This document shows, piece after piece, positions 3,001 through 42,740 of a DNA stretch of 64,000 bases; position 1 is the first letter of the stretch; every line of letters starts with the position of its first letter. Under the pieces are notes generated by a model that did no database searches, was not told the DNA's origin, and was given only the letters and a program-made list of their open reading frames with translations. A program made the translations under genes and the position numbers. The stretch is from a virus: IMG/VR virus record IMGVR_UViG_3300044953_000102, positions 1-64,000 of that record; one strand, written 5' to 3'.

Positions 3001-4242
3001 ACTGTTTTAAACTTTTTAAAATCAACAGATTTTGATTCCTCCTATTTATACCAAGCACTTTCAAACGAAGCTATAAGAAAATATACTTATTTTGATAAAA
3101 TAGAAAATACTCAATTTCAAAAAGATGAATTTAATAGAATAATAGGTCAAGCTAATATTAAAGCTATGACAGTACTTGTTGATGCTGTAAATAAAAAAGC
3201 AGATACAATACCTCATGAATATGCTCATCACTATATAGCTTGGTTTAGAAATACACCTATTGTACAAGAAGCTATTAAAAGATGGGGTAGTGAAGAAGCA
3301 TTAGTTCAAGCTATTGGAGAACAAGTAGTTAAACAAAAAGGAGAAGCATATAACTGGTGGAAAAAGTTTACCAACTTTATTCTTAGATTATTATCTGATA
3401 AACAATTATTACAGGTATTAACTGATAGTTTTCTTAATAGAGCTGACTTAAATGAATTTACTTATAATAAAGTAACCCCACAACAAAAACAACAAGCCCA
3501 ACAACTTTATTCTCAATACTTAGAGCAAACTGGTAAACAAGATATAGAAGGGTTTAAAGAGTTTGTTAGTCAACCATCTACTCAACAACAAGGTAGTGTT
3601 AGTACCCAACCCACTGTAAATACTCAAACAGATTCTACTAATATAGACACACTATCTGAAACAAAAAGACTCGGTTTAAAAAATACTGATGATCCAATGG
3701 TATTTACTTATAATGACTCCGGTGCAAAAAATTTGTTTTATTATAAAAATTTAGGTAAAAATAATCCGGATGTAGTGTTTGTACATAATGTAAGTGTTTA
3801 TGAAATAATGCCAAATCAGATTGAAAGAGGTATTAACTTAGGTGGATCATCTAACTTTATGACAGAAGTAGCAGATATGTCTGTTAACTTACCTACAGAT
3901 TTATTTATAAACGTAGTAAATAATCAAAGAGTTCCACTTAATCCTGAACAGTATAACACACTAAAAAACATTTGGGAGAAAAGAATTAATATACTAAAAC
4001 AAATTCAAGAAAAAGGTGGTAAAATTGCATTTCCTGAGTATGGTTTTGGCAATCCTAAGACAATGCCTCAAGAATTATTCGTATATTTAAGTAAGAGATT
4101 GTTTGAGGAATTTGGATACATCAATCCTGGTTCAACTATGTACAATGAAATACGAGATATGGTTGGAGTAATTCAAGGAATCTCTGATGAAGAAATATTA
4201 ATGCAATTGGAGCTAGAAGAAGATCCATTTAAATGTTCATGA
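1..4242 (+). CDS. Giant polyvalent virion protein, 5'-truncated by the window: SLOG/DprA-like domain, ADP-ribosyltransferase-like domain, papain-like insert, HExxH metallopeptidase-like domain
   Basis: Frame is open from base 1 (LDQATKQKL...), so the ATG at 115 is internal. Motifs: EGGTGYAV..GKQVYVFNQ..YAGIG (SLOG-like); IVYHTT..GFHFTT..QIHILGS (ART-like); C..H..D; PHEYAHHY. Internal repeats present. Confidence 0.7.
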   Translation, partial: LDQATKQKLEDRYQAAREWLGRSNLSADTYAGKLVRRDMMQAAKADGIYAVSELVKPGVKGRKGYINKTNHSIIEGGTGYAVASGILLGKQVYVFNQDSSYGYPIGWYKWDTSKNDFVSTSIPVLTKNYAGIGSSTNETEAGKQAIRDVYANTFKATTQPSQQQGSVKPGVDELFESNPELANQIYEALGFKQSNSESKIYNRTFQNEEYHNAFVKGGLDAVKKVIEKNKQKELSAAKQLSKEVDLLTEFEELSNKTNKTNKENDRVIELYVILKNSKELDFEYSLKEIGLPNNYVKPTIEITQQQKQQAQQLYSEYLDSLSKPNTNPIFQSNKQEQVKKFTELQERLNNKEFLEGAKTAYESTPALKQYGTQEEYNDYIARVSLGILKNPSSGEYNYTSKVKDIVYHTTDNVFNSFDVKKIGSNQNTNAKDVIKGFHFTTDKESETIYGNIKMFTILDVRNPRTVEYILPQKLNDNEDSIIYKESNPTTEDSNNIIVLKSSQIHILGSKQDIEGFKEFVSQPSTQKQGSVKEGVSELFESNPELANQVYEALGFTGNISLESNLKNTGKTEQELTEYLKKKYPEIKLTITNNPVWEKDDNIFNQKLEEQVNNFELFENQDKLCPSGICNYTAKASTEHLQKIGLNPYPSNYNGSQLPVKVKSPIGDFDIEHYVSAVAINNGIYIYDMPQNEFISNEFFGKGSDVKVKESYKPRLIPLTIDEIKANYNLSTEEAGNFIHSILNNNGWRGADAAPSFREYITKNIKNSEEYINLLEAQIKDSGYEFKQWDVEEYRKSIKNKKDILKTKKITKEEEQKVIKYYENKLKLKTKEYLPKKTDSFSLRTLINSVLGRGFENKIDYSSFETALESLDKYLKSEIFIEDLLNKVTNAKENLDSINKSIDQVYSLAKLFASFTKQVKVYGIEEALKKYDSKQQYTIKTLLPSNVLDKYKSKEQAALLLQKYWGNKDNIVKQFNIYKTQTFTDLITNKFKAHSVFNKYQTVLNFLKSTDFDSSYLYQALSNEAIRKYTYFDKIENTQFQKDEFNRIIGQANIKAMTVLVDAVNKKADTIPHEYAHHYIAWFRNTPIVQEAIKRWGSEEALVQAIGEQVVKQKGEAYNWWKKFTNFILRLLSDKQLLQVLTDSFLNRADLNEFTYNKVTPQQKQQAQQLYSQYLEQTGKQDIEGFKEFVSQPSTQQQGSVSTQPTVNTQTDSTNIDTLSETKRLGLKNTDDPMVFTYNDSGAKNLFYYKNLGKNNPDVVFVHNVSVYEIMPNQIERGINLGGSSNFMTEVADMSVNLPTDLFINVVNNQRVPLNPEQYNTLKNIWEKRINILKQIQEKGGKIAFPEYGFGNPKTMPQELFVYLSKRLFEEFGYINPGSTMYNEIRDMVGVIQGISDEEILMQLELEEDPFKCS
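475..573 (+). repeat. Intragenic repeat A copy 1 (QPS..QGSVK.GV.ELFESNPELANQ.YEALGF)
   Basis: Closely similar to 1564-1665 at DNA and protein level. Confidence 0.9.
1528..1665 (+). repeat. Intragenic repeat C (KQDIEGFKEFVSQPST) joined to repeat A copy 2
   Basis: 1528-1594 matches 3535-3601 with one mismatch; the downstream part matches 499-573. Confidence 0.9.
3472..3601 (+). repeat. Intragenic repeats B (T.QQKQQAQQLYS.YL) and C, copy 2
   Basis: B matches about 904-954; C matches 1528-1594. Confidence 0.9.
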
Positions 4243-4243
4243 T

Positions 4244-7200
4244 ATGGTTTGTGAAGTACAATTAAACTCTATAAAATACTTACAAAATAAAGGTGCTACT
4301 AATGATGTAAGAAGAATTATTGATGAAGATCTCTTTAATGAGCTTAATGATAAACTTACAGCACTTGCTGAAACTAAGTATGGTCTCAAAACTAATGGGG
4401 CTAAATTGTTTAGTATAAATATGTCTGAGCATATTGATCCTTGGAGATCAACATATTATAGAGATACTAAGTATAAAATACTAAGAGCAGAACCAAACGT
4501 ACCACTCTTTGATAGACTCCAAGAGTTATTCAACGCTAGACCTGATCAACCAATGATGATGAGAGAACTACCAGTTGAAACTCAAGAAGAAATAATTGAC
4601 TCTCAAGAAAATCCATTTATAGAAATTAACGGAGTACTCTTCATGGATGTCAAACTAGATGAACTCCAAAATCAAAGATCACGAGAAATTGCTGAAGTAC
4701 TTGCTAAAAGACTATCACTCGGTACAAACACCAAGTTTGAAAATATCACTAAGGAAGAGGCCGCTGAGATATTAAAAAACAGACCTGTCAAGTACAATGG
4801 AGAACCAGCCTTTTACTATGCAGGAACAGTTTATGTAGTAGGGGAAAATGTCAACGTGAGAACTGTATTGCATGAGTTTTCACATCCTGTACTAAACGCT
4901 CTGAGAAAGACTAACAACATCCTGTTTCAGAATCTATACAATCAAGCTATTGCTACTGAAGAAGGTCAGGGAATCTTTTATTATGTAAAGACTAACTATC
5001 CAGAATTAGAGGAGAGTTCAGATTTATTTAAAGAAGAAGTACTTGCATATGCAATGCAGTTAAAAGCACTCAACAGAATCAACAATGAAATTGAGACTGA
5101 AGGGTATAAGAGTTTCATGAATAAACTCTTCGCTGCCATCAAGCAATTACTTAGAAGATTGTTTGGTAATAAAGTAAATGTTGCCAAGTTAGATGTGGAT
5201 ACTACGTTAGAGGAACTTGCTGACATGCTCTTAGATAAAGACTTTGAGTTCTCTACAGATTTGATAACTGAAGATGACCTTGCAATGTTTTCCAGGGAAG
5301 TACTGGAACGAGCAAAAGAACTAAATAAATTCTCCAACAAAGAATCAATGGAGAAAGTTGTAAGGACTACATATGAATACACCAAAAGAATTCTGACAGA
5401 GGCCGAAAACTTTAAAGGTGATAAAGTATCTAGAAACTTACTTAAAGAATCACTGTTTCAAAAAGGTACTAATAGATACTTGCGGGAAGTTGTAAGTAAT
5501 TTAAAAAACAACCTGGATACTAATATAGAAGGTAAGTCAGAAGATGAACTTATACAAAATGCATTAGATGCTGCTAGAGTTGAGATGGATGTAGATCTCC
5601 AAAGAGCAATGGCATTAGTAAACAGTTTAGATAATATTAATGGCATGACTAAAAACATGTTGTTAGACATATCTAGAATCAACAACTCTAATATAAATAA
5701 CAGAAGTACTATTGCATTGATGATGCTTTACAAGTCTAACTCTAGAGCTTGGTTAAAAATGATCCAAGAGATAGATGAAGCTTTATCATTAAGTGGAGAT
5801 ATAATAGATAGTAATAATCCATTCTATAAAACAATGAATGAGATTATACTAAACATCACCCGGATCAATACAAACATTGCCAACTTACTTAAAAATAACA
5901 ATGTTCAGTTCTATGTTGAGATGACAAGTTATATGTCAAAATATGTTCAGGATAGATTGAAAGGTAATTTAGGCATTGCATTAAAACAAACATTTCCAAC
6001 AGAACAATTAGAACGTGAAGTGGATGACCTGTATAATAAAGTAGTTCAACAGACTCTTACTGATGCAGACATAGATGCATTAGTGCAGAAAGGTGTTCCT
6101 GCTGATGTATTACGTGGGTTTATAACTGAGTATAAAAACTTAGTAATTGATGAAGAAAAAATCAAAGCTGCACTTACTGGAGGAGCTCATGATGTAAGCT
6201 GGTTTAATAGATGGTTAGAGTCATATAGTTCTAGTAATGACATCATAGTAGGTCCATTAGCAATGTTTATTCAGAATGAAAAGACTCAAGTTCAACAACA
6301 AGTTTGGGAGAAGTCAATGAAGTTTAGAAATAAACTTGAAAAACTTTTACCCAAAGTTGGCTTTAGCAAATTGAATTCTATTGCAATGAGAGAGAAGATG
6401 GGATTCAAAGACAAAGTGTTCTGGGTAGATAAAGAAACCGGGAAACCTATTGAGAAAGAAGTTTGGAGTTATGTGGGTGCATTTAAAGATTATAGATATC
6501 ACTATGATCTATTAGAGTGGAACATAGAAGAACCAAAGAAAACTGAAGATCCTGCTAAGATTGCTCAGGCTATTATGGACTTTGATGATTTTAAAAGAGA
6601 CTACATGTGGCAAGAAAATGTTCCTGAATTCTATGCAAAGGATGACATATTTAAAAAATCTGAGGTAGGTCAATTAGCATACTATGTAAAGAAACAGAAA
6701 CTTCAAGCTTATAATAACTTAGTTAACTCAATGGAAAGTGAGCTTGAAAGAGTGGAAAAATACTCTACTATTCAAGCTGCATTTAGAGAATTCCAACAGT
6801 TATATTCTCTTACATATGAAGATGGTACTCCAAAGGTAGATGACCCTGCAAATAATGTCTATGATTTAAGTATAGCAAAAGTACTTATAGAACATAGAGA
6901 AGCTACTAAAGACTTTTATGAATGGAGACCTATTGAAGGTTTGTTACAGAGTGCATATAATGAGTATGTAGATTTGCTTGCTACTAAACAAATCTTTCCA
7001 GGATCTGCTGAGTTTAATAGAGAAATAGAAAAATGGAGAAGACAGAACCTACGTATGGAATATACAGAGGACTTCTGGGAATCTAGAGTTAAACTATGGA
7101 ATGAACTTGGTGAACTACAAGCAAAAATGAATGCTGCAACTAAATCAACTTTTGATTCTGCTGCCGCATTTAAAGAAATTAGTGATCTAATTTATAGTTA

Positions 7201-10192
7201 TAGGGATGAACAAGGAGAGCCTAATAGTTCTGCTATGGGTGAAACAAGACTCAAAAGAATTAGAGATCTTGAGCAAGCCCTTTCAGACTTTAAGTTTAGA
7301 TTTGACATGTCCATGGGTCTTTCAAGAGAAGATGCTGATGAACTTAGAGCTCTAACTAAAAAAGCAAAAAGTGGTTTAATAAAACCTGGTACTCCAGAAT
7401 CTAAAAGATATTTTGAGTTATTAAAAAGACAAGAAGCAGAGGGTATAAATCCTGATGATGTTGCAAGAATAGACGAAATCTTTGGTGAGTTGGGTGCACT
7501 AGCACAAAGTTTACCTACAGTACATTATATTGAAACCTTAAATTATAATCTATCTAAGCAAAATATCAAAGAGCTTGATATGGATAAGATTGATGAGTTC
7601 ATTAATTCTGAAGAGTTTCAAGATATATTAGATGCAGATGAAGGGTTTAAGAAGTGGTTTAATTTAAACCATTATACTGTTGAAGCATATGATAAAAAAA
7701 CTAAATCATATCAAACAAAGTATAAAAGAACTCGGGCCAATAATGTTTCAATACCAAAAAATCCAGATCATATTAAGTATACAAAGATCTTAGATAGAGA
7801 AGGTAATGAAGTTGAGTTAGTTGGTGTACCCTCAGCAAGACATTCTAGGTATGAAGTAAAAGATAAATATAGAACCATTCCTTTTGGTGCCAACAAAGAA
7901 GATTATATTGGAGAATATATTGATAATAAAAATCAGTGGCTACCAAGAATGTTTGATCCTTCAAGCAAATACAGTGCTAAGGATAACAGATTCATGAATC
8001 AGAAATATTTTCAAATGAAATCTGCAAACAATGCAGAATTTCAATTACTTGAAGCTATCAAAGAATACCATCTAGAGAATCAGAAAGGTATGAGTAACTA
8101 TAGTAAACTCTATCTTGATATGCCTAGGTATGCTATTAAAAAAGGTGATATTTATCAAGCATTACAAAAAGGAACATATGGTCAAAGATTCTCTGAACTT
8201 GGTAAAAACATTAAAGAATGGTACAATCAAGCTTTAGGTAAATCTGTAGTAGATGCTGAAAATGATTATAACTATAATCCAGAAAATAACTTAGTCAATA
8301 CAGATCTTGACGGTAATCAAATCACCTATGTGCCTGTATCAGGTATTTACAACTTAGATATAGAGAACCAAGATGCTGATATTTTCAAAGGCTTATTTAG
8401 ATATGCCTTATCTATACAAACCCAGGGTAAACTTTTAGAAAGCTTACCGCTTGTTAATTCCATACTTGAAACATTAGAGGATCCTGAAAATGCTCCAAAA
8501 GAACTAGAGAAGTTTGATAAAAACATGTATAGTCTTAAAGGAGCTCTTAGAATGGCAAAGAAAAAGTTTGATACTAATAATAGACTTGGACAAGTTAAGT
8601 CTCTTATAGAAAGAGAATACTATGGTAAAATGGTTGAAGGTATTGAAGAAACTCACCCAGGATTTGGTAAATGGGTGCAAAGTCTTCAAGGTTTTTCTGC
8701 TATGAGTGCATTAGCTATAAATATTCCTTCTGACCTTAAAAACAAATATGGTGCATATGTACAGTTAATTATAGAAGGTGCAGGTGCTGAGTTTATAAAT
8801 CTTAAAGATATTGCATTAGCAAGACCTTGGGCAGAAAAAGCTATGTTAGAATGGAGTACAAAAGGAATCTATCAAACTGGTCCAGGTGCAATATCTACAC
8901 AACTTATTCAAATCTTTGACCCCGTATTTAAATTCAAAGATGAATTTGGTAGAGAAGTAGAAAGATCTATGGTAAAAGATCTAGCTAATTTTGAGTGGAT
9001 GTATATGCATAGAAGATTTGGTGAGATGCAAGTTGCTACTTCACTTTTTGGTGCATTTATGTATGGTCAAAAAGTAGATCAAGTATTGAATGGTGCTAAA
9101 AAATCAATAAGATATATTGAAGCTTGGGAAAAAGATGAGGATGGTATTATTAGATTAAAACCAGGTATTCATCCAGGTTGGAGTAATTTACCAGTATATC
9201 ATGAATATACTAAAGGTGAGAGTTTAGAAGCAATTGCTAAAAAATATCACATCTCTGTTGAAGAACTTAAAGCTAAAAACAGAATTAAATCTGAAGTGCA
9301 GCTTGAAGATGGTCAAGAAATTATTATTGCTAAGTCAGAGTTATTTATGGGATTGAAAAATAGAATTCAAGGAACATCTCGTAAACTCTTTGGTGCATAT
9401 GATGATATGGGTCAACCAGAAGGAAATAAATTACTACTCTATAGATTATTTTTCTTTATGAGAAAGTGGTTTACCCCTATGTTGATGAATAGATTTGGAT
9501 TTGATTCTAAAACTATTAGTTGGACTCGTGGTGGAGAAAGATATGATTGGGCAACTACATCTTATGGTAAAGGTTTTTATATTACGGCATTTCAAACAAT
9601 GTTAAAAACTATAAAATCAGGTTTTAGAAATTACAGTTATTTAACTGATGAAGAAAAAAGTGCTGTAAGAAAACTTAGTACAGAAGCATTATTTGCAATT
9701 GGTCTTGCTTTGTTAGGTTTAATGATCTTTGGGTTTGATCCAGATGATGATGAAAAATGGAAAAAATTAAGAGCAAAATCAGGAGCAATTGGTCAAGATA
9801 CTTTTAATACATATGGGTTTTTATCTAATCATATGCTTCTTTTAATGATGGGTGTACAAGCAGAAACTTCCGCATTTGTTCCTCTACCTCAAGTAATGGG
9901 AATTAACTTTGGAGCAGATGATTATGTAAAAATGATTACTCAAACAACAAGTGCTTGGTATAACACAATTGTTCTTTATATTGATATTCTTGGAGATGTT
10001 TTAGATTTTATTACATTTCAAGATATGGATAGATATAAAAGAGATACTGGACCATATTCTTGGAAAGAAAAAGGCAGTTTAAAAGTTTGGAGTAAGTTGG
10101 GTAAAACAATTGGATTCAGTGGTGGAACTGGAGATCCAGTTACAGTATATGAAAATATGTTTAAAAATCAATCTAAATCAGGAGGACGTTAA
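4244..10192 (+). CDS. Giant virion/ejection-type protein with HExxH metallopeptidase-like domain, LysM domain and C-terminal hydrophobic helices
   Basis: 1982 aa; TVLHEFSH; LysM-like KGESLEAIAKKYHISVEELKAKNRI..LEDGQEIII; hydrophobic ALFAIGLALLGLMIFG; size and position typical of crAss-like giant virion proteins. Confidence 0.7.
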   Translation: MVCEVQLNSIKYLQNKGATNDVRRIIDEDLFNELNDKLTALAETKYGLKTNGAKLFSINMSEHIDPWRSTYYRDTKYKILRAEPNVPLFDRLQELFNARPDQPMMMRELPVETQEEIIDSQENPFIEINGVLFMDVKLDELQNQRSREIAEVLAKRLSLGTNTKFENITKEEAAEILKNRPVKYNGEPAFYYAGTVYVVGENVNVRTVLHEFSHPVLNALRKTNNILFQNLYNQAIATEEGQGIFYYVKTNYPELEESSDLFKEEVLAYAMQLKALNRINNEIETEGYKSFMNKLFAAIKQLLRRLFGNKVNVAKLDVDTTLEELADMLLDKDFEFSTDLITEDDLAMFSREVLERAKELNKFSNKESMEKVVRTTYEYTKRILTEAENFKGDKVSRNLLKESLFQKGTNRYLREVVSNLKNNLDTNIEGKSEDELIQNALDAARVEMDVDLQRAMALVNSLDNINGMTKNMLLDISRINNSNINNRSTIALMMLYKSNSRAWLKMIQEIDEALSLSGDIIDSNNPFYKTMNEIILNITRINTNIANLLKNNNVQFYVEMTSYMSKYVQDRLKGNLGIALKQTFPTEQLEREVDDLYNKVVQQTLTDADIDALVQKGVPADVLRGFITEYKNLVIDEEKIKAALTGGAHDVSWFNRWLESYSSSNDIIVGPLAMFIQNEKTQVQQQVWEKSMKFRNKLEKLLPKVGFSKLNSIAMREKMGFKDKVFWVDKETGKPIEKEVWSYVGAFKDYRYHYDLLEWNIEEPKKTEDPAKIAQAIMDFDDFKRDYMWQENVPEFYAKDDIFKKSEVGQLAYYVKKQKLQAYNNLVNSMESELERVEKYSTIQAAFREFQQLYSLTYEDGTPKVDDPANNVYDLSIAKVLIEHREATKDFYEWRPIEGLLQSAYNEYVDLLATKQIFPGSAEFNREIEKWRRQNLRMEYTEDFWESRVKLWNELGELQAKMNAATKSTFDSAAAFKEISDLIYSYRDEQGEPNSSAMGETRLKRIRDLEQALSDFKFRFDMSMGLSREDADELRALTKKAKSGLIKPGTPESKRYFELLKRQEAEGINPDDVARIDEIFGELGALAQSLPTVHYIETLNYNLSKQNIKELDMDKIDEFINSEEFQDILDADEGFKKWFNLNHYTVEAYDKKTKSYQTKYKRTRANNVSIPKNPDHIKYTKILDREGNEVELVGVPSARHSRYEVKDKYRTIPFGANKEDYIGEYIDNKNQWLPRMFDPSSKYSAKDNRFMNQKYFQMKSANNAEFQLLEAIKEYHLENQKGMSNYSKLYLDMPRYAIKKGDIYQALQKGTYGQRFSELGKNIKEWYNQALGKSVVDAENDYNYNPENNLVNTDLDGNQITYVPVSGIYNLDIENQDADIFKGLFRYALSIQTQGKLLESLPLVNSILETLEDPENAPKELEKFDKNMYSLKGALRMAKKKFDTNNRLGQVKSLIEREYYGKMVEGIEETHPGFGKWVQSLQGFSAMSALAINIPSDLKNKYGAYVQLIIEGAGAEFINLKDIALARPWAEKAMLEWSTKGIYQTGPGAISTQLIQIFDPVFKFKDEFGREVERSMVKDLANFEWMYMHRRFGEMQVATSLFGAFMYGQKVDQVLNGAKKSIRYIEAWEKDEDGIIRLKPGIHPGWSNLPVYHEYTKGESLEAIAKKYHISVEELKAKNRIKSEVQLEDGQEIIIAKSELFMGLKNRIQGTSRKLFGAYDDMGQPEGNKLLLYRLFFFMRKWFTPMLMNRFGFDSKTISWTRGGERYDWATTSYGKGFYITAFQTMLKTIKSGFRNYSYLTDEEKSAVRKLSTEALFAIGLALLGLMIFGFDPDDDEKWKKLRAKSGAIGQDTFNTYGFLSNHMLLLMMGVQAETSAFVPLPQVMGINFGADDYVKMITQTTSAWYNTIVLYIDILGDVLDFITFQDMDRYKRDTGPYSWKEKGSLKVWSKLGKTIGFSGGTGDPVTVYENMFKNQSKSGGR

Positions 10193-10487: not shown

Positions 10488-10860
10488 TAAACTTAGAAAG
10501 ATCAGGTTTAAAATAACCAGGTCCTTTTAATATTTTACCATCTTCTCTCATGACAGCTTTGCCATCTTCACCAAGTTTGCTCATGTTACTTGCTTGTATC
10601 TCTCTAAATACATCTTCTATTACATCTTGCATACCATGTTTTAGAATAGTCCCACATAAGATGTATAATTGATCACCTAGTGCATCAGCTATATCTACAA
10701 GAGAATTTTTTTGACATGCTTTTAGATACTCATCATTCTCTTCAGCCATTAAGTTGTGTCTTAATACTACTTCTCCATACTCTAATGGTTGTGGCCATTT
10801 ACCATCTTTCTGACCAAATGCTTTGTGAAACTCAGCCACAGAATTTAATTGTTCTTTCAT
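10465..10860 (-). CDS. MazG-like / PRA-PH nucleoside triphosphate pyrophosphohydrolase
   Basis: EFHKAFG..EENDEY..IADALGD..SNMSK..REDGKILKGPGYFKPDL pattern. Confidence 0.85.
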   Translation of the reverse strand: MKEQLNSVAEFHKAFGQKDGKWPQPLEYGEVVLRHNLMAEENDEYLKACQKNSLVDIADALGDQLYILCGTILKHGMQDVIEDVFREIQASNMSKLGEDGKAVMREDGKILKGPGYFKPDLSKFIKTNQKK

Positions 10861-36426: not shown

Positions 36427-36546
36427 AACTTAAAGTTTTAAAAATTAATAAATAAATAAATAGATTGTTTTGAGTAGATGTACTATATCATTAGTTACTC
36501 ATGCTAAGTGATAAGTGTTTAATATTGCATATCGCAATATGCAATA

Positions 36547-36819
36547 CTAGTTATCCATTGGATCTGTTAAGTCAATGATATCATCAAATGGTAAATCATC
36601 TGATGCAATATCATTTAAATCATAATCTTCCATAGGAAGAAACTCTGTGTCTATGAATTTTTCTCTGGTGTTTTTATCAACAGCAGAGCCGGTAAAAGGA
36701 TCCCTAATATGTTCACCGAAGTCTATTGACATGAGGTATTGTATATCTTCATCTGTAAGATCAAGAAATTCCTCTATTGTTAAGTGAACTACTTTCCCAT
36801 TAGGGAGTTGATATAACAT
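36547..36819 (-). CDS. Small acidic hypothetical protein
   Basis: Start taken at MLYQLPNGK. Confidence 0.7.
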   Translation of the reverse strand: MLYQLPNGKVVHLTIEEFLDLTDEDIQYLMSIDFGEHIRDPFTGSAVDKNTREKFIDTEFLPMEDYDLNDIASDDLPFDDIIDLTDPMDN

Positions 36820-36981
36820 TACCTGTATAAATATGCAGATAAATATATAGTATTTATAGTAATCTAAGTTGTTTAAACTAATAATATTTAGCAATATATA
36901 GCTAAACAATGAAAAAGGGGATATCTCTACCCCCTTATCATTTATTCAGGAAAAGCATATTTTACAATACACTGTCTTTAA

Positions 36982-37209
36982 TTAATCATTAGAACGCTTA
37001 TAATCAAGTAGTTTGTCATACAAGTCTTGATTAAAGCTAGTCCAAAACTTTTTATTTGTAATTTGATTTAGACTAACTGGTTTAATTTGTGCTTTGTAAT
37101 TAGAATAAATTACACCAGAATTTACAGGTTGACCATTTTGGTCTTGAACTTTACAAGTAAGGTCAAACCCCAGAACTGATTTAATAATGTTGTATGGATT
37201 ATTTCTCAT
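36982..37209 (-). CDS. Hypothetical protein
   Basis: 75-aa ORF downstream of the tRNA. Confidence 0.65.
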   Translation of the reverse strand: MRNNPYNIIKSVLGFDLTCKVQDQNGQPVNSGVIYSNYKAQIKPVSLNQITNKKFWTSFNQDLYDKLLDYKRSND

Positions 37210-37225
37210 AGAATTTAGTTTATAG

Positions 37226-37299
37226 TGGTCCCATTTGGATTCGAACCAAAGACCTACTGCTTAGAAGGCAGTTGCTCTATCCAGCTGAGCTACGGGACC
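37226..37299 (-). tRNA. tRNA-Arg (anticodon UCU)
   Basis: GGTCCCGTAGCTCAGCTGGATAGAGCAACTGCCTTCTAAGCAGTAGGTCTTTGGTTCGAATCCAAATGGGACCA forms a full cloverleaf with a TTCGAATC T-loop. Confidence 0.95.
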
Positions 37300-37363
37300 A
37301 ATATTAAACAGACTATAACACCTTTCATCTGTTTATTGCGGTTAAAGGTGAACGCAAATATAA

Positions 37364-37651
37364 TTAATATTCTGGTCCCAAGTCCTCCCAAGTGACATCA
37401 TCTTCACTTAGAACCCAAACTGATTCAGCAAAACCGGAAGTAGTATTTATTAAATACTTTATACTTCCAAACTCAACCATTAATCTGTCACTGTCAACTT
37501 TGTAAACTTTCTGGAGCTTTTCTGTCTCCATTCTTTCCAGATTTTTTACATACTTAACTTCAGACTTAGTAAGTCCCATATATTTATCATCATCATTAAA
37601 TAAAAGTAAAAATAAAGGGAAAATAAACAATAAAATCAATTTTGTAATCAT
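37364..37651 (-). CDS. Hypothetical protein with N-terminal hydrophobic anchor
   Basis: Start taken at MITKLILLFIFPLFLLLF (ATGA overlap). Confidence 0.65.
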   Translation of the reverse strand: MITKLILLFIFPLFLLLFNDDDKYMGLTKSEVKYVKNLERMETEKLQKVYKVDSDRLMVEFGSIKYLINTTSGFAESVWVLSEDDVTWEDLGPEY

Positions 37652-37899
37652 AGTGATAATATTAAACCGTAAATAATTAAACTCATTGAAGACGCTATAA
37701 ATAAAGCAAGTCCCCATTTAAAACCAATAAACATTCTTTCTTCTTCAATCTCCTTCTCAATTACATCAAGGTCCCACTGCAAATCATTTACTCTAAACAT
37801 TACAATCTCTGGATCTGCAGATGAATTATATGCAGCATCAATGAGGGATATAATATCCCTCTTTTGATGCTCTAGTTTATTAAGCTTTCTGTAAATCAT
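37648..37899 (-). CDS. Hypothetical protein with C-terminal TM helix
   Basis: 83 aa; ATGA overlaps. Confidence 0.7.
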   Translation of the reverse strand: MIYRKLNKLEHQKRDIISLIDAAYNSSADPEIVMFRVNDLQWDLDVIEKEIEEERMFIGFKWGLALFIASSMSLIIYGLILSL

Positions 37900-38036
37900 T
37901 TGCTTAAATCTTTTGTGTTAATACTCTGCTTTTCCTGACCATAAGCATCACAATGTGATGAACTCTTGCAACTAACTAAAGTTGCCAAAGCACCAATAAA
38001 TACAAACCATAATACTACAATCATACCTGTTTTCAT
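37896..38036 (-). CDS. Small lipoprotein (46 aa; not in ORF track)
   Basis: MKTGMIVVLWFVFIGALATLVS-CKSSSHCDAYG, lipobox-like. Confidence 0.6.
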   Translation of the reverse strand: MKTGMIVVLWFVFIGALATLVSCKSSSHCDAYGQEKQSINTKDLSK

Positions 38037-38047
38037 AATCATAAATT

Positions 38048-38374
38048 TTAAAAAGGTAAATTTAAATCAGTTATTAAATCCTCAGCACCAATTGCTCTAT
38101 CTAGCAATGTTGCTTTTTTGCTTGCAAGTTTCTCCATCTTGGCATTTACTTTATAAACCTCAAGTTTTTGAAACCAATTGTGACCAAGAGAATCATTATG
38201 AGAGAGAATTCCTTCTATTCTACATAACATTCTATCTTTTCTGCTTGAACGCATTACAGCAAAACCAAATATTTCTCTAATTTCATCTGCATCTGCAGCT
38301 GTAAGATTCATATTTAGTTTAATAATTGTGTGACCACCAAAACTGTGGTAGCCAAAAGGAATTGTTTTGTTCAT
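38048..38374 (-). CDS. Hypothetical protein
   Basis: 108-aa ORF with AT-rich leader. Confidence 0.7.
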   Translation of the reverse strand: MNKTIPFGYHSFGGHTIIKLNMNLTAADADEIREIFGFAVMRSSRKDRMLCRIEGILSHNDSLGHNWFQKLEVYKVNAKMEKLASKKATLLDRAIGAEDLITDLNLPF

Positions 38375-38391
38375 AAGTTTAATTTTTAAGT

Positions 38392-38571
38392 TTATTTTTC
38401 AGATTCAATTCTTAATGCAGTTGTCACAGTAGCAATTAGTATAATTACTTGGACTATCCATCCAAATATATTATACTGTTCAAAGTGGAATACCCCACCA
38501 AGTGTTGTCATTCCTTCAAGAAAAATGACTAGTAATATAGCCAAGGCTATATATTGGATTTTTTTAATCAT
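38392..38571 (-). CDS. Small two-TM membrane protein (59 aa; not in ORF track)
   Basis: MIKKIQYIALAILLVIFLEG...WIVQVIILIATVTTAL. Confidence 0.6.
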   Translation of the reverse strand: MIKKIQYIALAILLVIFLEGMTTLGGVFHFEQYNIFGWIVQVIILIATVTTALRIESEK

Positions 38572-38699
38572 AAGTTTAGTTTTAAATAGTTAATAATCAT
38601 ATACATTGAGTGGTACTAACTGTACTACTCATTAGTATTTAGTACTTGCTTGAAGCACTAAAAAGAAAGACCGAAACCGTTATAGTTCTAGTCTTTAAA

Positions 38700-39560
38700 A
38701 TTGTAAAGGGCTGAGTGTTGACCTTTTACTTGCAATAATTCTGACAGTTTTCACCATCTTACACACACTATTATTTCTAACAGTATATTGCATGCACAAT
38801 AGATTAGGTATCTATCAAACCACTACGTACCAACTAATAAGTTCCTGTTCCTACCAACTTCCCTGCAAAGGATTAACAAGATGCCTCCTGTTAGTTAGAT
38901 AGTACTTATTTCCTTTACCATCTGTCTTGCGGACATCAGGTATCTACATATTACAGCAGAATAAGTGCATTTTCATTAGTACGTGTCTGGACACTTTTGC
39001 ATTATAATTAGTAATAATTATTTTGCGGTCCAAGAATGTGAAAGTAGTGGTCCAAACCCTTAATAACATGCTACCTTTTGGGTAGTTTAGTTATACTACT
39101 TTCTGTTTTCACCTGCCAAGGATACTCACTGTCAAATGTAATTGTCCACGGTATTTCTACCAACAGACTACAAATGACTAATAGACGCTTCAAGACTGGC
39201 AATCTCTACTACATACTATTTACTATACCTATCTATTGAGATTTCTCTCTCAAACTCCTACTTGTTAGAAGTTCTGTAATACTGTGCATCAACCGTTAGG
39301 CCACAAGCACCCCACATTACAGGGAATATAGTATCTTTCAGTAGACAGGATAAATCCTGCGCAATATGTTACCAACATATCACTTTATACCATCACTGGT
39401 TTATCTTAAGGTCACGAAGACTGACCTGTTGTTTCAGTAACCCATCAAGTAGGTTTAACGTACACACCATGAGCATTTCAACTCTGAGGGTAACAACATT
39501 GTGTACTTATATTCAGGACTCTTACCTGCAAATCCCTACATAGTCAATAGGAATGGCTTT
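38700..39560 (-). ncRNA. Candidate large ornate structured ncRNA (GOLLD/ROOL size class; family unassigned; boundaries approximate)
   Basis: No credible ORF; GC higher than flanks; many hairpins, three GNRA-capped stems on the - strand and long-range helices (38797-38811/39225-39238; 38775-38782/39263-39270). Confidence 0.65.
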
Positions 39561-39919
39561 TTTACATATAGACCATTTGCAAAAAATAAAAGTAAACAAT
39601 AATGTTGGAGAGATACAAAACGATAGATTAATTACTTCTACCTTCCTTGTTGAAAATCTACTCTCTTTTCGATTGTTACATAGTTTTAGTTACCTACTGT
39701 ACTTGCGGCAACACTATTGCTTACTTCTTAAAATCACTTAAAGGAGCTACCTTTCGTTTAAAACGCTAATGAGTGATTTTATTTGTAACTTACAAAACCT
39801 ACAACAATAGGTACATCAGTTACAATGTTTTTCAACTTTAGGAAAACCAATACACTATTGTTCAAATAGTTTAATTGATTTTTAATGAACAAACCTGATT
39901 TAAATAGTTTACTCTATTT

Positions 39920-40112
39920 ACCCCTCTGCACTCAGTTTGTAATAGTAGCTTTGACGTGCTAATAGATGTCACTCTACTCAAATGTCAGGATTAGTTTTTT
40001 TCACCTGATTCTGGCTTGTTTGTTTACCAGCATTTGAACTATTACAAACTGCTCACCCTTACGGGTTAGTGCAAAGAGAAAATAAAGAGCAGTTTAATAT
40101 CATGCTCAGGAT
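39920..40112 (-). ncRNA. Candidate structured RNA (about 190 nt, multi-branch)
   Basis: Perfect 14-bp helix 39933-39946/40038-40051; outer helix with G-U wobbles on the - strand; accc-GTAA-gggt tetraloop. Confidence 0.6.
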
Positions 40113-40119
40113 AATGTTT

Positions 40120-40359
40120 TTAGTATATAGAATCTAAATCAGGAAGACCTGATTTAATTTCTTCTCTATACTGTTGTACAAGCCAGAGTTTATCTTCAAA
40201 CTCCATACTAGTAATTTCCCGGATTTTCTGTTCATCTAACTTTTCCCGGTAGTACTGTTTAGCAAAAACTAATAGTTCTTGATTAACTAATAGGTTCTGA
40301 TAAGCAAGAGTATCTGTATACTCTCTGTTGATAACTTGATTAATCATAGTTGCATTCAT
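40120..40359 (-). CDS. Hypothetical protein
   Basis: 79-aa ORF. Confidence 0.7.
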   Translation of the reverse strand: MNATMINQVINREYTDTLAYQNLLVNQELLVFAKQYYREKLDEQKIREITSMEFEDKLWLVQQYREEIKSGLPDLDSIY

Positions 40360-40455
40360 ATATATATGTTTAAAAGATTACGTAATTAAAAGTTAGCTAT
40401 ATTTTTTTATTATATAAATACTATAATAATATATAGTAATAATGTATAGGATGTA

Positions 40456-40631
40456 TGAGTAGTAAATGAGTAGTGAGTATAATACTCACATACTTAAACT
40501 CTCTTATCTAATACAGATTTCCGCGTAGAATTTTATTTAACTCTACAATTATTCTGTATCTTAATTAACCCATACAAAGTATTATAATAATATTATTTAT
40601 TTTTTGTTGAGTAGTATTGAGTATTGAGTAA
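40456..40631. repeat. Cluster of TGAGTA repeats in an AT-rich non-coding region
   Basis: TGAGTA at 40456, 40467, 40474, 40608, 40618, 40625; inverted TACTCA at 40483. Confidence 0.6.
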
Positions 40632-40706
40632 TATCTACTGATGTTAAACTCAATTACTATTTACTAAAAAAATCAGAAATAATGCGGTAACATTATTTCC
40701 CATTTC

Positions 40707-40732
40707 AAGTGAAGGGTTAGCAAAAAAGAGGG
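40707..40732 (-). promoter_or_regulatory. Repeated motif GCTAACCCT, copy 3 (candidate early promoter)
   Basis: ccctctttttTGCTAACCCTTcactt; related copies at 41271-41298 and 41577-41594. Confidence 0.5.
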
Positions 40733-40753
40733 TATTCTAATTACTAAAAAAAT

Positions 40754-40780
40754 GAAAAGTAGGACCTAAGTCCTACTTTC
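40754..40780 (-). terminator. Hairpin/terminator
   Basis: aaagtaggac-TTAG-gtcctactttt. Confidence 0.65.
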
Positions 40781-40794
40781 TCATCTCACAATGT

Positions 40795-41235
40795 CTACAA
40801 ATCTTCATTCAATGCAGCATCATCCCCATTTGCAACAGGTTCTTGTATGAATGCATTTGCAGTACTGCTGGATACTTTACCTGCACCAAATACTTTATCT
40901 GCAAGTCTATTTGCAAATGCAGTTGCAAGCACTGATGAAGTTTGCTCCAACATTTCCAATCTTGCAACATCTTTTCTTGTTTCAGATTGGTCTAATGTGA
41001 AGTTACCATCTTGTTTAAGATACAATGGTAGTTCATCTCTAAATGCATCCATATACATTGTATGCATTTGTGGTTCTCCACTTGCAGACTTCCGTGGATA
41101 TTGTTTGAACTGCGGGGAATTAATATATTGTTTAATTTCCTCGGTTGTACCTTTGATGGTATAAATATGGAAGGTTTTACCTTTTTGCTCACCTTCTTTA
41201 CGGATATAGTTCCCACTGTAAACTGCTTTCAACAT
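40795..41235 (-). CDS. Hypothetical early protein
   Basis: 146-aa ORF with its own upstream motif and terminator. Confidence 0.8.
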   Translation of the reverse strand: MLKAVYSGNYIRKEGEQKGKTFHIYTIKGTTEEIKQYINSPQFKQYPRKSASGEPQMHTMYMDAFRDELPLYLKQDGNFTLDQSETRKDVARLEMLEQTSSVLATAFANRLADKVFGAGKVSSSTANAFIQEPVANGDDAALNEDL

Positions 41236-41270
41236 AATGTTTAAGTTTTAGTTAATGAATAAATTATCAA

Positions 41271-41298
41271 GATAAGTTAAGGGTTAGCAAGTAGAGGG
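41271..41298 (-). promoter_or_regulatory. Repeated motif GCTAACCCT, copy 2
   Basis: ccctctactTGCTAACCCTTaacttatc, about 35 nt upstream of the ATG at 41235. Confidence 0.55.
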
Positions 41299-41318
41299 AA
41301 AAAAAAGAGAAAGACCTC

Positions 41319-41561
41319 CTAAGAGGTCTGGATCTTTTTGGCTTTACTGATGTAGATGGATTCATATCCAGCTGCATTAGTATAAAGCCTGTAAATGATT
41401 TCATACAATCCAGGAGATTGGATGGAATCTTTTACCACTGCTTTGGGGATTCTTGGAAGCCACAAATCAGTGTTGACTTTCTTTATAACATAGAGAAAGT
41501 CATGAGACTTACAAGGAAGGATGCTCACTAGAGCTGACTGAGTTGGAAGTTGTGTATTCAT
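41319..41561 (-). CDS. Hypothetical early protein (80 aa)
   Basis: Start taken at MNTQLPTQ; the longer call crosses the G-rich island. Confidence 0.6.
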   Translation of the reverse strand: MNTQLPTQSALVSILPCKSHDFLYVIKKVNTDLWLPRIPKAVVKDSIQSPGLYEIIYRLYTNAAGYESIYISKAKKIQTS

Positions 41562-41576
41562 AAAATTATATTTTAT

Positions 41577-41594
41577 GATAGGTTCAGGGTTAGC
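41577..41594 (-). promoter_or_regulatory. Repeated motif GCTAACCCT, copy 1
   Basis: GCTAACCCTgaacctatc, 15 nt upstream of the ATG at 41561. Confidence 0.5.
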
Positions 41595-41649
41595 CCATGC
41601 AAGACAGACAAGAAACTTTTTTTCCCAGAGGATAAAAAAGTTTTTTTTC

Positions 41650-41738
41650 TGGCTGATGCAGACACGTGTGCTGGCAGAGACAGGGGGGTACCCACCCTGG
41701 CTGCGGCTGGGGGGTGGCTGCTGCAGGGGGGTCCACAC
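41650..41738. other. GC-rich island with three G6 tracts at the strand-divergence point (possible genome end / packaging site)
   Basis: GGGGGG at 41683, 41709 and 41726 in an otherwise AT-rich genome. Confidence 0.5.
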
Positions 41739-41781
41739 AATCTCTAATGCAAAATATTTTTGGTGCCAAAGAAAATTTTTG

Positions 41782-41795
41782 TATATTATTATGTA
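41782..41795 (+). promoter_or_regulatory. Phage promoter-like motif TATATTATTATGTA
   Basis: Identical to 28737-28750; heads the + strand block. Confidence 0.55.
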
Positions 41796-41813
41796 ACCCA
41801 TTAAAACAAAAGA

Positions 41814-42740
41814 ATGGAGGTTAAAAAGATTAGTAAGAATATACACAATGTTATTTTTACTGGAAAAACAGCAGAGGTTGCTGTATTGTCAGACATACAC
41901 TGGGATAACTCACACTGTGATAGAAAGCTTTTAAAGAAACATCTTAATTACTGTAAGGAGAATAATATACCTGTGGTTATTGTAGGGGATCTATTCTGTC
42001 TTATGCAAGGTAGAGGAGATAATAGGAGGAATAAGTCAGATATACTCCCGGAACATAATAATGCATTTTACTTAGATTCAATTGTAGATACTGCCGTGGA
42101 GTGGTTTAAACCATATGCTGATATTATCAAGGTAATTGGTTATGGTAATCATGAGACCGGGATAATTAAGTACCAAGAGACTGATGTACTGAAGAGGTTT
42201 GTTGAGATAATGAATCTTAAGTATAATTCTAATATACAGGTTGGAGGTTATGGTGGCTGGATAGTGTATAGTTTACACTATAGAAAAAATGCTGTGTCTT
42301 CATTTAAGCATAAGTACTATCATGGTTCTGGCGGGGGAGGTATTGTGACTAAAGGTGCTTTGAATCTTACTAGAGCCTTAGAGATGTATGAGGATATGGA
42401 TCTATTTACTATGGGACATATACATGAGAACTCTTCCCGTAATGATGTTAGAGAAGGATTATTATATCACAATAGTAAATATAAGATCCAACAAAGACAG
42501 ATCAATCATTGTATTACTGGGACATACAAAGAAGAGTATGGTGAAGGATCACATGGTTGGCATATAGAGAGAGGTGCTCCTCCTAAACCATTAGGTGGTA
42601 GAATAATAACTTTTTCTGTAAAAGATTCAGTTGATGAAGACGGTAAAAATTATATAGAAAAAAAGTGGATAGTAAATCTTTTCCAATTTAATTTATATAT
42701 TTGCTTATCTAGCAAAAAACGGCAAGGGGTCTGGAGGTGA
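41814..42740 (+). CDS. Calcineurin-like metallophosphoesterase
   Basis: SDIH, VGDL, GNHE, HG, GHIH; the C-terminus may be frameshifted near 42660. Confidence 0.85.
   Translation: MEVKKISKNIHNVIFTGKTAEVAVLSDIHWDNSHCDRKLLKKHLNYCKENNIPVVIVGDLFCLMQGRGDNRRNKSDILPEHNNAFYLDSIVDTAVEWFKPYADIIKVIGYGNHETGIIKYQETDVLKRFVEIMNLKYNSNIQVGGYGGWIVYSLHYRKNAVSSFKHKYYHGSGGGGIVTKGALNLTRALEMYEDMDLFTMGHIHENSSRNDVREGLLYHNSKYKIQQRQINHCITGTYKEEYGEGSHGWHIERGAPPKPLGGRIITFSVKDSVDEDGKNYIEKKWIVNLFQFNLYICLSSKKRQGVWR

What the first reader, a model, noticed from the sequence alone, without database searches (positions are those of the whole stretch)
38700..39560. Candidate ~850-nt ornate non-coding RNA in the early region of a crAss-like phage
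Seen: 38572-40119 has no credible CDS in a genome that is otherwise densely coding, yet it is more GC-rich than ordinary spacers and full of helices. GNRA-capped stems read correctly only on the - strand: ggta-GAAA-tacc (39150-39161), gaga-GAAA-tctc (39238-39249), acca-GTGA-tggt (39389-39400). Other hairpins: cagga/tcctg (39346-39359), atatgtt/aacatat (39364-39380), aggtca/tgacct (39409-39427), gaaagtagt/actactttc (39040-39103) enclosing ataac/gttat and ctacc/ggtag, and ctgtaat/attacag (39274-39322). Two nested long-range helices span 430-490 nt: caatagat(t)aggtat 38797-38811 with atacctatctattg 39225-39238, and ttctaaca 38775-38782 with tgttagaa 39263-39270. Known: GOLLD and ROOL RNAs are phage-associated ncRNAs of several hundred nt, often near tRNA genes; a tRNA-Arg lies about 1.4 kb downstream on the same strand. 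Inference: a GOLLD/ROOL-class RNA or a new giant RNA family, possibly expressed early.
Basis: partly seen in the sequence, partly recalled or inferred. Interest (0 to 1): 0.88.

Follow-up and report, generated by a model that had tools for sequence, protein, structure and literature searches.

The report
Divergent GOLLD RNA in freshwater phage
The gene-free stretch encodes an ~800-nucleotide folded RNA that belongs to the known phage GOLLD family (RNAs that build RNA-only cages), so it is a real and expressed RNA but not a new kind.

Summary
Window 38572-40119 has no credible ORF under any code tried. A block at 38708-39511 (minus strand, about 803 nt) is sharply conserved in 18 related IMG/VR phage contigs, and four more distant contigs share its 5' motif.

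The block folds better than shuffled controls (z = -4.8). In its predicted structure 98.7% of pair cells are paired, and 73 of 215 pairs show compensatory double changes, against 8-11 in slid controls.

Rfam's GOLLD model (RF02032) matches 38708-39103 end to end at 121.6 bits, E about 3e-33. That is below the curated 150-bit cut-off, which is why the default scan missed it. The upstream 408 nt is the GOLLD 5' domain. Its core junction recurs in 20 independently retrieved GOLLD loci and in env-38, the GOLLD solved by cryo-EM.

RNA contigs from four freshwater metatranscriptome studies cover only this block, at high depth. Several end at 38707-38712, and two of those run straight into sequencing adapter.

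Its two long-range helices are not conserved. The phage is about 115 kb, from lake water, and only distantly crAss-like. Close relatives lack the RNA or carry a pistol ribozyme after it.

Verdict: a new member of a known family. This scan has already reported divergent GOLLD RNAs in related phages (e1-5938885, e1-5938901).

The parts
38708..39511 (-). Whole GOLLD RNA: the conserved, covarying core of about 803 nt
   Evidence: Conservation among 15 homologues jumps from about 0.5 to 0.8-0.98 exactly between these limits. BLASTN matches in 18 IMG/VR contigs reach 71-89% identity, most over positions 1-803. The structure has 215 pairs, 73 with double changes. RNA contigs cover only this block.
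38708..39103 (-). GOLLD 3' region: a hairpin with a conserved CAAAA loop, an AU-rich linker, and the 3' domain with its long-range helix
   Evidence: Rfam RF02032 matches at 121.6 bits, E 3.4e-33, model positions 1-416 of 416. Its helices are recovered independently by RNAalifold with covariation (helices 22-38).
39104..39511 (-). GOLLD 5' domain (408 nt), including a GAAA-capped hairpin at 39150-39161 and the junction 'hairpin - GAUAAACCA-GNRA-UGGUAUAAAGUG - hairpin - UGCG - hairpin' at about 39341-39429
   Evidence: Helices 1-21 covary. Covariance model R1 of the junction hits 20 other GOLLD loci at E<0.05; in the six I cross-checked the hit lies upstream of the 3' domain on the same strand. 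The same motif order is present in env-38.
38988..39034 (-). Short AU-rich variable linker between the domains; it holds no tRNA
   Evidence: It aligns to the unstructured stretch of RF02032, with a deletion. It is the least conserved part of alignment A2. ARAGORN finds no tRNA here.
39513..39560 (-). 48-nt module directly upstream of the RNA, a candidate promoter: TTGACT at 39547-39542, a 17-nt spacer, TAAGAG at 39524-39519. This would start the RNA at about 39511.
   Evidence: The module is 94-100% identical in 7 loci whose GOLLD core is only 72-89% identical. Other loci carry an unrelated module here. It occurs once in the genome. The promoter reading is inference; the tool's sigma-70 scan did not list it.
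38660..38696 (-). Terminator-like hairpin followed by CUUUUU, 12 nt after the RNA core
   Evidence: strand folding gives -16 kcal/mol, z -2.3. The element is not conserved in relatives, which carry other elements here.
37225..37299 (-). tRNA-Arg(TCT), same strand, 1.4 kb downstream
   Evidence: Rfam tRNA at 69.9 bits; ARAGORN.

Best explanation
The stretch 38708-39511 on the minus strand is a gene for a GOLLD RNA, in a lake-water phage of about 115 kb that is distantly crAss-like. It is made as a discrete, abundant RNA of about 0.8 kb. It probably starts at about 39511, behind a dedicated upstream module, and ends at about 38708-38712, just before a terminator-like hairpin.

By homology with env-38, the GOLLD solved by cryo-EM, the RNA most likely folds into two domains and self-assembles without protein into a closed multimeric cage. 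env-38 forms a 14-mer, in which the 5' domains make the caps and the 3' domains make the ring.

What the cage does is unknown for the whole family. The published suggestion is that it encloses or scaffolds partners such as tRNAs or ribosomes during lytic growth.

Shown here: family membership, extent, strand, fold, and presence in RNA libraries. Inferred: promoter, terminator, cage assembly and any function.
For: - RF02032 matches end to end at 121.6 bits, E 3e-33, and it is the only such hit in the 115-kb genome.
- The block is 803 nt, split 408 + 396 nt. env-38 splits 420 + 413 nt.
- 98.7% of pair cells are paired and 73 pairs show double changes. Slid controls give 34-45% and 8-11.
- The A-rich CAAAA loop is invariant in alignment A2. 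Kretsch et al. single out conserved A-run loops, naming L14, as quaternary contacts; that this loop is L14 is my inference, since the figures are not held.
- The 5' junction model R1 hits 20 independent GOLLD loci; in the six I cross-checked the hit lies upstream of the 3' domain on the same strand. env-38 aligns to it collinearly.
- A phage tRNA lies 1.4 kb downstream, and homologue L229 carries a tRNA inside the linker, as described for GOLLD.
- RNA contigs from four studies, at word depth 55-196, cover 38707/38712 up to 39405-39483. The flanks are near zero. Two contigs run into adapter at 38712.
Against: - The score is below Rfam's gathering cut-off (121.6 against 150 bits).
- R1 did not hit the four GOLLD loci that do pass the cut-off, at 254-278 bits. 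Their 5' domains share only the CCA-GNRA-UGG hairpin by eye. The 5' domain here is therefore of the environmental type, not universal.
- The RNA evidence comes from assembled contigs of close relatives (90-99% identical). It does not give strand, level or true ends, and no DNA run was laid as a control.
- Cage formation and the mapping of individual quaternary contacts could not be tested.
- The promoter's -10 box (TAAGAG) is poor.
Confidence: 0.9

Rival explanations
1. It is a new giant RNA family that only resembles GOLLD superficially.
For: The score is below Rfam's gathering threshold. The default Rfam scan and the genome search first look both missed it. The 5' domain has no sequence-level match in other GOLLD loci by nhmmer.
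Against: E is 3e-33 over all 416 model positions, with conserved motifs and the long-range helix kept. The structure-aware model of the 5' junction links it to 20 other GOLLD loci and to env-38. Intermediate homologues exist at 54-104 bits.
Confidence: 0.04
2. It is a protein-coding or recoded region, for example with stop-codon reassignment as in some crAss-like phages, and not an RNA gene.
For: Some crAss-like phages reassign TAG or TGA (my own knowledge). With TAG=Q, frames of up to 94 aa appear.
Against: The frames are short, lie on both strands and overlap. Substitutions among homologues are compensatory in helices, not codon-patterned. Neighbouring genes read normally in code 11.
Confidence: 0.01
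3. It is a GOLLD-derived relic, or a mere mobile cassette without present function in this phage.
For: Distribution is patchy. Four near-complete relatives with a capsid protein at least 90% identical lack it, and G005 carries ORFs of 303 and 139 aa in the stretch that lies here. The flanks are mosaic.
Against: Pairing is kept in 98.7% of cells across lineages 71-89% identical, which shows ongoing selection on the fold. Closely related copies are abundant in RNA libraries of four studies.
Confidence: 0.05

Closest known systems
GOLLD RNA (Rfam RF02032; env-38 cryo-EM 14-mer cage, Kretsch et al. 2025, PMC12286853)
   Same: The 3'-region covariance model matches end to end. Length is about 800 nt, with a 5' domain, a variable linker and a 3' domain. 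The CAAAA loop, the GAAA-capped 5' hairpin and the 'AUAAAGUG - hairpin - UGCG' junction are all present. It is phage-borne, near a tRNA, and comes from lake water.
   Different: It scores 121.6 bits, below the 150-bit cut-off. About 85-95 nt (two to three hairpins, 39430-39511) lie 5' of where the env-38 construct begins. The linker is short and holds no tRNA. The host phage is a distant crAss-like lineage that is not among the phages named in the stored part of the published alignment.
Lactobacillales/isolate-type GOLLD loci that pass Rfam's cut-off (L145, L115, L117, L087; 254-278 bits)
   Same: The same 3' region, with tRNAs directly adjacent.
   Different: Their 5' domains are not hit by the junction model R1 and share only a CCA-GNRA-UGG hairpin by eye.
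Divergent GOLLD followed by a pistol ribozyme in related phages (earlier notes e1-5938885 and e1-5938901; here L222, L209, L220, L217)
   Same: The same GOLLD clade, 71-82% identical.
   Different: Those loci have a pistol ribozyme (RF02679, 42-56 bits) at about 0-390 nt after the RNA. The window has no pistol and has a terminator-like hairpin instead.
ROOL RNA (octameric cage)
   Same: A large ornate phage RNA that often lies near tRNAs and forms a cage.
   Different: No Rfam match at E up to 10. The sequence and fold are unrelated.

Membership tests
GOLLD RNA (RF02032) | Statistically significant, end-to-end match to the family covariance model | tested here: met
   121.6 bits, E 3.4e-33, model positions 1-416 of 416, not truncated.
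GOLLD RNA (RF02032) | Reaches Rfam's curated gathering score of 150 bits. This is an annotation cut-off, not a biological feature. | tested here: not met
   121.6 bits. Thirteen of the 17 environmental loci scanned, all carrying the GOLLD 3' motif, also fall below it. So do the window's homologues, at 54-104 bits.
GOLLD RNA (RF02032) | RNA of about 800 nt with a less conserved 5' domain, a variable linker and a conserved 3' domain | tested here: met
   The conserved block is 803 nt, split 408 + 396 nt, with an AU-rich variable linker at 38988-39034. The env-38 figures are given.
GOLLD RNA (RF02032) | 3'-domain helices, including the long-range helix, maintained by covariation | tested here: met
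   Helices 22-38 are 92-100% paired. Helix 27 (columns 550-559 with 702-711) has 4 pairs with double changes.
GOLLD RNA (RF02032) | Conserved A-run loop used for A-minor quaternary contacts (L14 type) | tested here: met
   The CAAAA loop is invariant in all 13 sequences while its stem covaries. The role of such loops is described. Whether it makes the contact here cannot be tested.
GOLLD RNA (RF02032) | 5' domain homologous to that of the solved env-38 GOLLD | tested here: met
   The junction model R1 hits 20 other GOLLD loci at E<0.05; in the six I cross-checked the hit lies upstream of the 3' domain on the same strand. env-38's 5' end aligns collinearly. Only the junction was tested formally; the rest was compared by eye.
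GOLLD RNA (RF02032) | Encoded by phages or prophages, often near tRNA genes | tested here: met
   The genome has a large terminase, a portal protein and a major head protein. tRNA-Arg lies 1.4 kb downstream. Homologue L229 has a tRNA inside the linker and sits in a tRNA array.
GOLLD RNA (RF02032) | Self-assembly into an RNA-only 14-mer cage | not testable with these tools
   This needs mass photometry or cryo-EM of the transcript.
ROOL RNA | Match to the Rfam ROOL model | tested here: not met
   ROOL is not among the matches at E up to 10 in 38300-40400.

The most novel reading that the evidence does not exclude
This clade may be a distinct GOLLD subclass with two features of its own. First, a 5' extension of two to three hairpins, which could change the cap or the stoichiometry of the cage. 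Second, it may be one module of a swappable 'RNA island': GOLLD, a second conserved structured RNA of about 100-160 nt, a pistol ribozyme or terminator, and a tRNA. In that island, interchangeable end-forming modules would define the mature RNA. The presence/absence polymorphism among near-identical abundant lake phages would then offer a natural experiment on GOLLD function.
Probability: 0.25. Interest if true: 0.45.

Novelty: new member of a known kind. Interest (0 to 1): 0.3.

Why it matters
GOLLD is one of the largest bacterial or phage non-coding RNAs. It builds RNA-only cages, yet its function is unknown.

This copy shows four things:
- The family reaches into an abundant lineage of freshwater phages that are distantly crAss-like.
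- Rfam's cut-off misses this whole branch.
- The 5'-domain junction of the solved env-38 structure is widely conserved among environmental GOLLDs.
- Closely related phages differ in whether they carry the RNA and in how its 3' end is made (terminator-like hairpin, pistol ribozyme, or another structured element).

These points help annotation and help in choosing constructs. They do not change what is known about the family.

Tried and rejected
- Default Rfam scan of the window at gathering scores: only the tRNA. The GOLLD match appears only at the E-value threshold.
- BLASTN of the region against 50,697 GenBank phages: no match.
- The genome search with RF02032 over 40 capsid-related records: 0 hits. 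This is unreliable, because direct cmscan finds an 85-bit GOLLD in one of them, G004. I therefore judged absence in G001, G002, G003 and G005 from BLASTN plus direct cmscan of the syntenic loci. It still rests on the parts I scanned.
- nhmmer with a profile of the 5' domain against 117 other GOLLD-motif loci: no hit. The structure-aware model was needed.
- The 48-nt upstream module as a repeated phage promoter: it occurs once in the genome.
- The GCAGTTNGTAAT motif as a repeated signal in the window: not clearly above chance, with 6 matches against 1.4 expected and 2 of 100 shuffles reaching 6.
- PHROG search of ten neighbouring small ORFs: nothing, except a DNA-repair exonuclease-like protein at 41814-42740.
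- RNA contigs give no cover of 39628-40730. That stretch is not conserved in the relatives present in those runs, so nothing follows about its transcription.
- Mapping the individual cryo-EM bridges (B1-B9) onto this sequence: not possible, because the figures are not held.
- Literature search for GOLLD together with crAss: no relevant paper in the held library.

Full report
**The region.** Window 38572-40119 lies between two small minus-strand ORFs. It holds no ORF longer than 62 aa in code 11. With TAG=Q, TGA=W or TAA=Q only short overlapping frames appear, on both strands. GC is 0.35-0.38 over 38700-39600, against about 0.30 beside it. The window is part of an IMG/VR virus record of 114,943 bp, estimated 96% complete. 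DNA runs that hold this stretch are lake-water metagenomes.

**Identity.** Rfam at gathering scores reports only tRNA-Arg at 37226-37299. At the E-value threshold, the GOLLD model RF02032 matches the minus strand at 38708-39103. The score is 121.6 bits (cut-off 150), E is 3.4e-33, and all 416 model positions are covered. The alignment keeps the family's conserved motifs (GCAAAAGU, CGCAAG, the CCUAA loop, UACU...GAAA...AGUG). It also keeps the long-range helix, ACGUACUAAU with GUUGGUACGU. No ROOL, OLE, intron, RNase P or tmRNA match appears at E up to 10. This is the only GOLLD match in the genome.

**Extent.** Two short-motif scans of IMG/VR brought in 22 contigs. Eighteen of them match the window at 71-89% identity, most over positions 1-803 of the query 38709-39511.
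- Column conservation is about 0.3-0.7 in the flanks and 0.74-0.98 inside. It steps up sharply at 39511 and falls off below about 38700.
- The RNA therefore spans 38708-39511. It consists of 408 nt upstream of the Rfam match plus the 396 nt of the match.
- This compares with 420 + 413 nt in env-38, the GOLLD solved by cryo-EM.

**Structure.** RNAalifold on 13 homologues gives 215 pairs, 73 of them with compensatory double changes.
- Counted against controls, 98.7% of cells are paired, against 34-45% when partners are slid by 1-3 columns.
- Pairs with double changes number 73, against 8-11 in slid controls.
- The covariation score is 0.371, against 0.075 or less. None of 500 shuffles reaches the observed values.
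- The single sequence folds with z = -4.83.
- Many invariant G-U pairs fix the strand as minus.

Its two long-range helices are perfect in the window, but they fall to 7/14 and 4-6/8 pairs in other clades and compete with covarying local hairpins. One of those local hairpins is part of the RF02032 consensus.

**The 5' domain.** Rfam's model and the published alignment cover only the 3' region ('env-38_3end'). I therefore tested the 5' half separately.
- A sequence profile of it finds nothing in 117 other loci retrieved with a generic GOLLD 3' motif.
- A small covariance model (R1) of its core junction was built from 15 sequences, including four distant homologues. The junction is: hairpin, GAUAAACCA-GNRA-UGGUAUAAAGUG, hairpin, UGCG, hairpin.
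- R1 hits 20 of those independent loci at E<0.05, the best at 1.4e-9.
- In the six loci I cross-checked (L190, L118, L165, L181, L172, L170), each hit lies upstream of the locus's 3' domain on the same strand.
- The 5' end of env-38, printed in the paper's supplement, aligns collinearly with the same order of elements.
- By eye, env-38 also has a counterpart of the window's GNRA hairpin followed by CAAUA, and a GAAA-capped hairpin further on.
- The four loci that pass Rfam's cut-off (254-278 bits) are not hit by R1. They share only a CCA-GNRA-UGG hairpin. This agrees with the published statement that the 5' region is less conserved.
- Compared with the env-38 construct, the window's RNA has about 85-95 extra nucleotides at its 5' end, forming two to three covarying hairpins (helices 1-5).

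**Expression.** Contigs of four freshwater or riverine metatranscriptome runs, from four studies, were laid on 36500-42000.
- They cover 38707/38712 up to 39405-39483 at word depths of 55-196.
- The bins 37420-38707 and 39628-40730 are at or near zero.
- In two runs, contigs run directly into Illumina adapter at 38712. Other contigs stop at 38707 or 38708.
- Some of these contigs differ from the window by only 3 letters in about 150.

Contigs cannot give strand, level or true ends, and I could not lay a DNA control. This is therefore good evidence of presence in RNA and a hint, not proof, of a discrete RNA ending at about 38708-38712.

**Ends (inferred).** Directly upstream lies a 48-nt module (39513-39560).
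- It is 94-100% identical in seven loci whose GOLLD core is only 72-89% identical to the window.
- Other loci carry an unrelated module at the same place. This includes L211, whose core is 99% identical to that of L219, which has the module.
- The module occurs once in the genome.
- It contains TTGACT, a 17-nt spacer and TAAGAG, placed so that transcription would start at about 39511. The -10 box is poor and the scan tool did not call it.

Twelve nucleotides after the core lies a terminator-like hairpin with CUUUUU, at 38696-38660.

**Relatives and context.** The large terminase, portal and capsid proteins identify a tailed phage. The terminase is 24-26% identical to Crassvirales and Flavobacterium phages. 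The capsid protein's best named hit is a Leptolyngbya phage at 28%. So 'crAss-like' holds only distantly.

More than 599 IMG/VR stretches encode a relative of the capsid protein, and the best 80 are at least 90% identical. The RNA is nevertheless patchy among them.
- Present: G004 and contigs such as L209, L210 and L218.
- Not found in the syntenic loci of the near-complete genomes G001, G002, G003 and G005, by BLASTN and direct cmscan.
- In G005, ORFs of 303 and 139 aa lie in the stretch between the flanking matches, where the window has the RNA.

Following a lead from earlier notes of this scan, I scanned the relatives. A pistol ribozyme (RF02679, 42-56 bits, above its cut-off) follows the GOLLD in L222, L209, L220 and L217, at about 0-390 nt. 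The window has none. Distant homologue L229 has a tRNA inside the GOLLD linker, and L228 has a hatchet ribozyme about 1.1 kb upstream. GOLLD here behaves as a cassette whose flanking start and end modules are exchanged among phages.

**Mechanism and verdict.** By homology, the RNA most likely folds into two domains and assembles into a protein-free multimeric cage like env-38. This, and any downstream function, is inference. Cage assembly cannot be tested with these tools.

It is a new, sub-threshold member of a known family. This scan has already reported divergent GOLLDs in related phage genomes.

Noticed in passing
window 39925-40068 (minus strand); also just after the GOLLD in L223, L219, L224, L214 and others: A second structured element folds with z = -5.0. 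Its parts are a short hairpin, then GAGCAGUUUGUAAUAGU, a variable insert, ACUAUUACAAACUG and AGUGCAGAGGG. A shorter version with the same conserved flanks (...CCCAAGGGU(A/G)G...CAGUUGUAAU...GAGUGCAGAGGGA) sits a few nucleotides after the GOLLD 3' end in clade-2 relatives. In L209 and L220 a weaker look-alike (a hairpin followed by GGCAGUUGUAGAA) lies between the GOLLD and the pistol ribozyme. In the window it lies about 410 nt upstream of the GOLLD instead. No Rfam family matches it.
   Followed up: partly
L222:2050-2111, L209:4605-4666, L220:1979-2040, L217:1434-1498: Pistol ribozymes above Rfam's cut-off lie about 0-390 nt downstream of the GOLLD in related phages. The window has none.
   Followed up: yes
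L228:9177-9379: A hatchet ribozyme (RF02678, 55.4 bits, above its cut-off of 51) lies about 1.1 kb upstream of a distant GOLLD homologue.
   Followed up: no
L229:10166-10683: A distant GOLLD homologue (54 bits) has a tRNA at 10520-10593 inside its linker and sits in an array of at least ten tRNAs.
   Followed up: no
window 40075-40113: A 39-nt stretch just upstream of the ORF at 40120-40359 matches three separate places in the relative G005, at 8943-8977, 9850-9888 and 10088-10116 (89-93% identity). It looks like a repeated intergenic signal in this phage group.
   Followed up: no
window 115-10192 (plus strand): Two giant ORFs of 1375 and 1982 aa have no PHROG match at E<=1e-5. They may be counterparts of the very large virion proteins of crAss-like phages (my own knowledge, not tested).
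   Followed up: no
The genome search with RNA family RF02032: The tool's loose first look missed an 85-bit, full-length GOLLD in G004 that direct cmscan finds. Its zero tallies for divergent RNAs should not be read as absence.
   Followed up: yes
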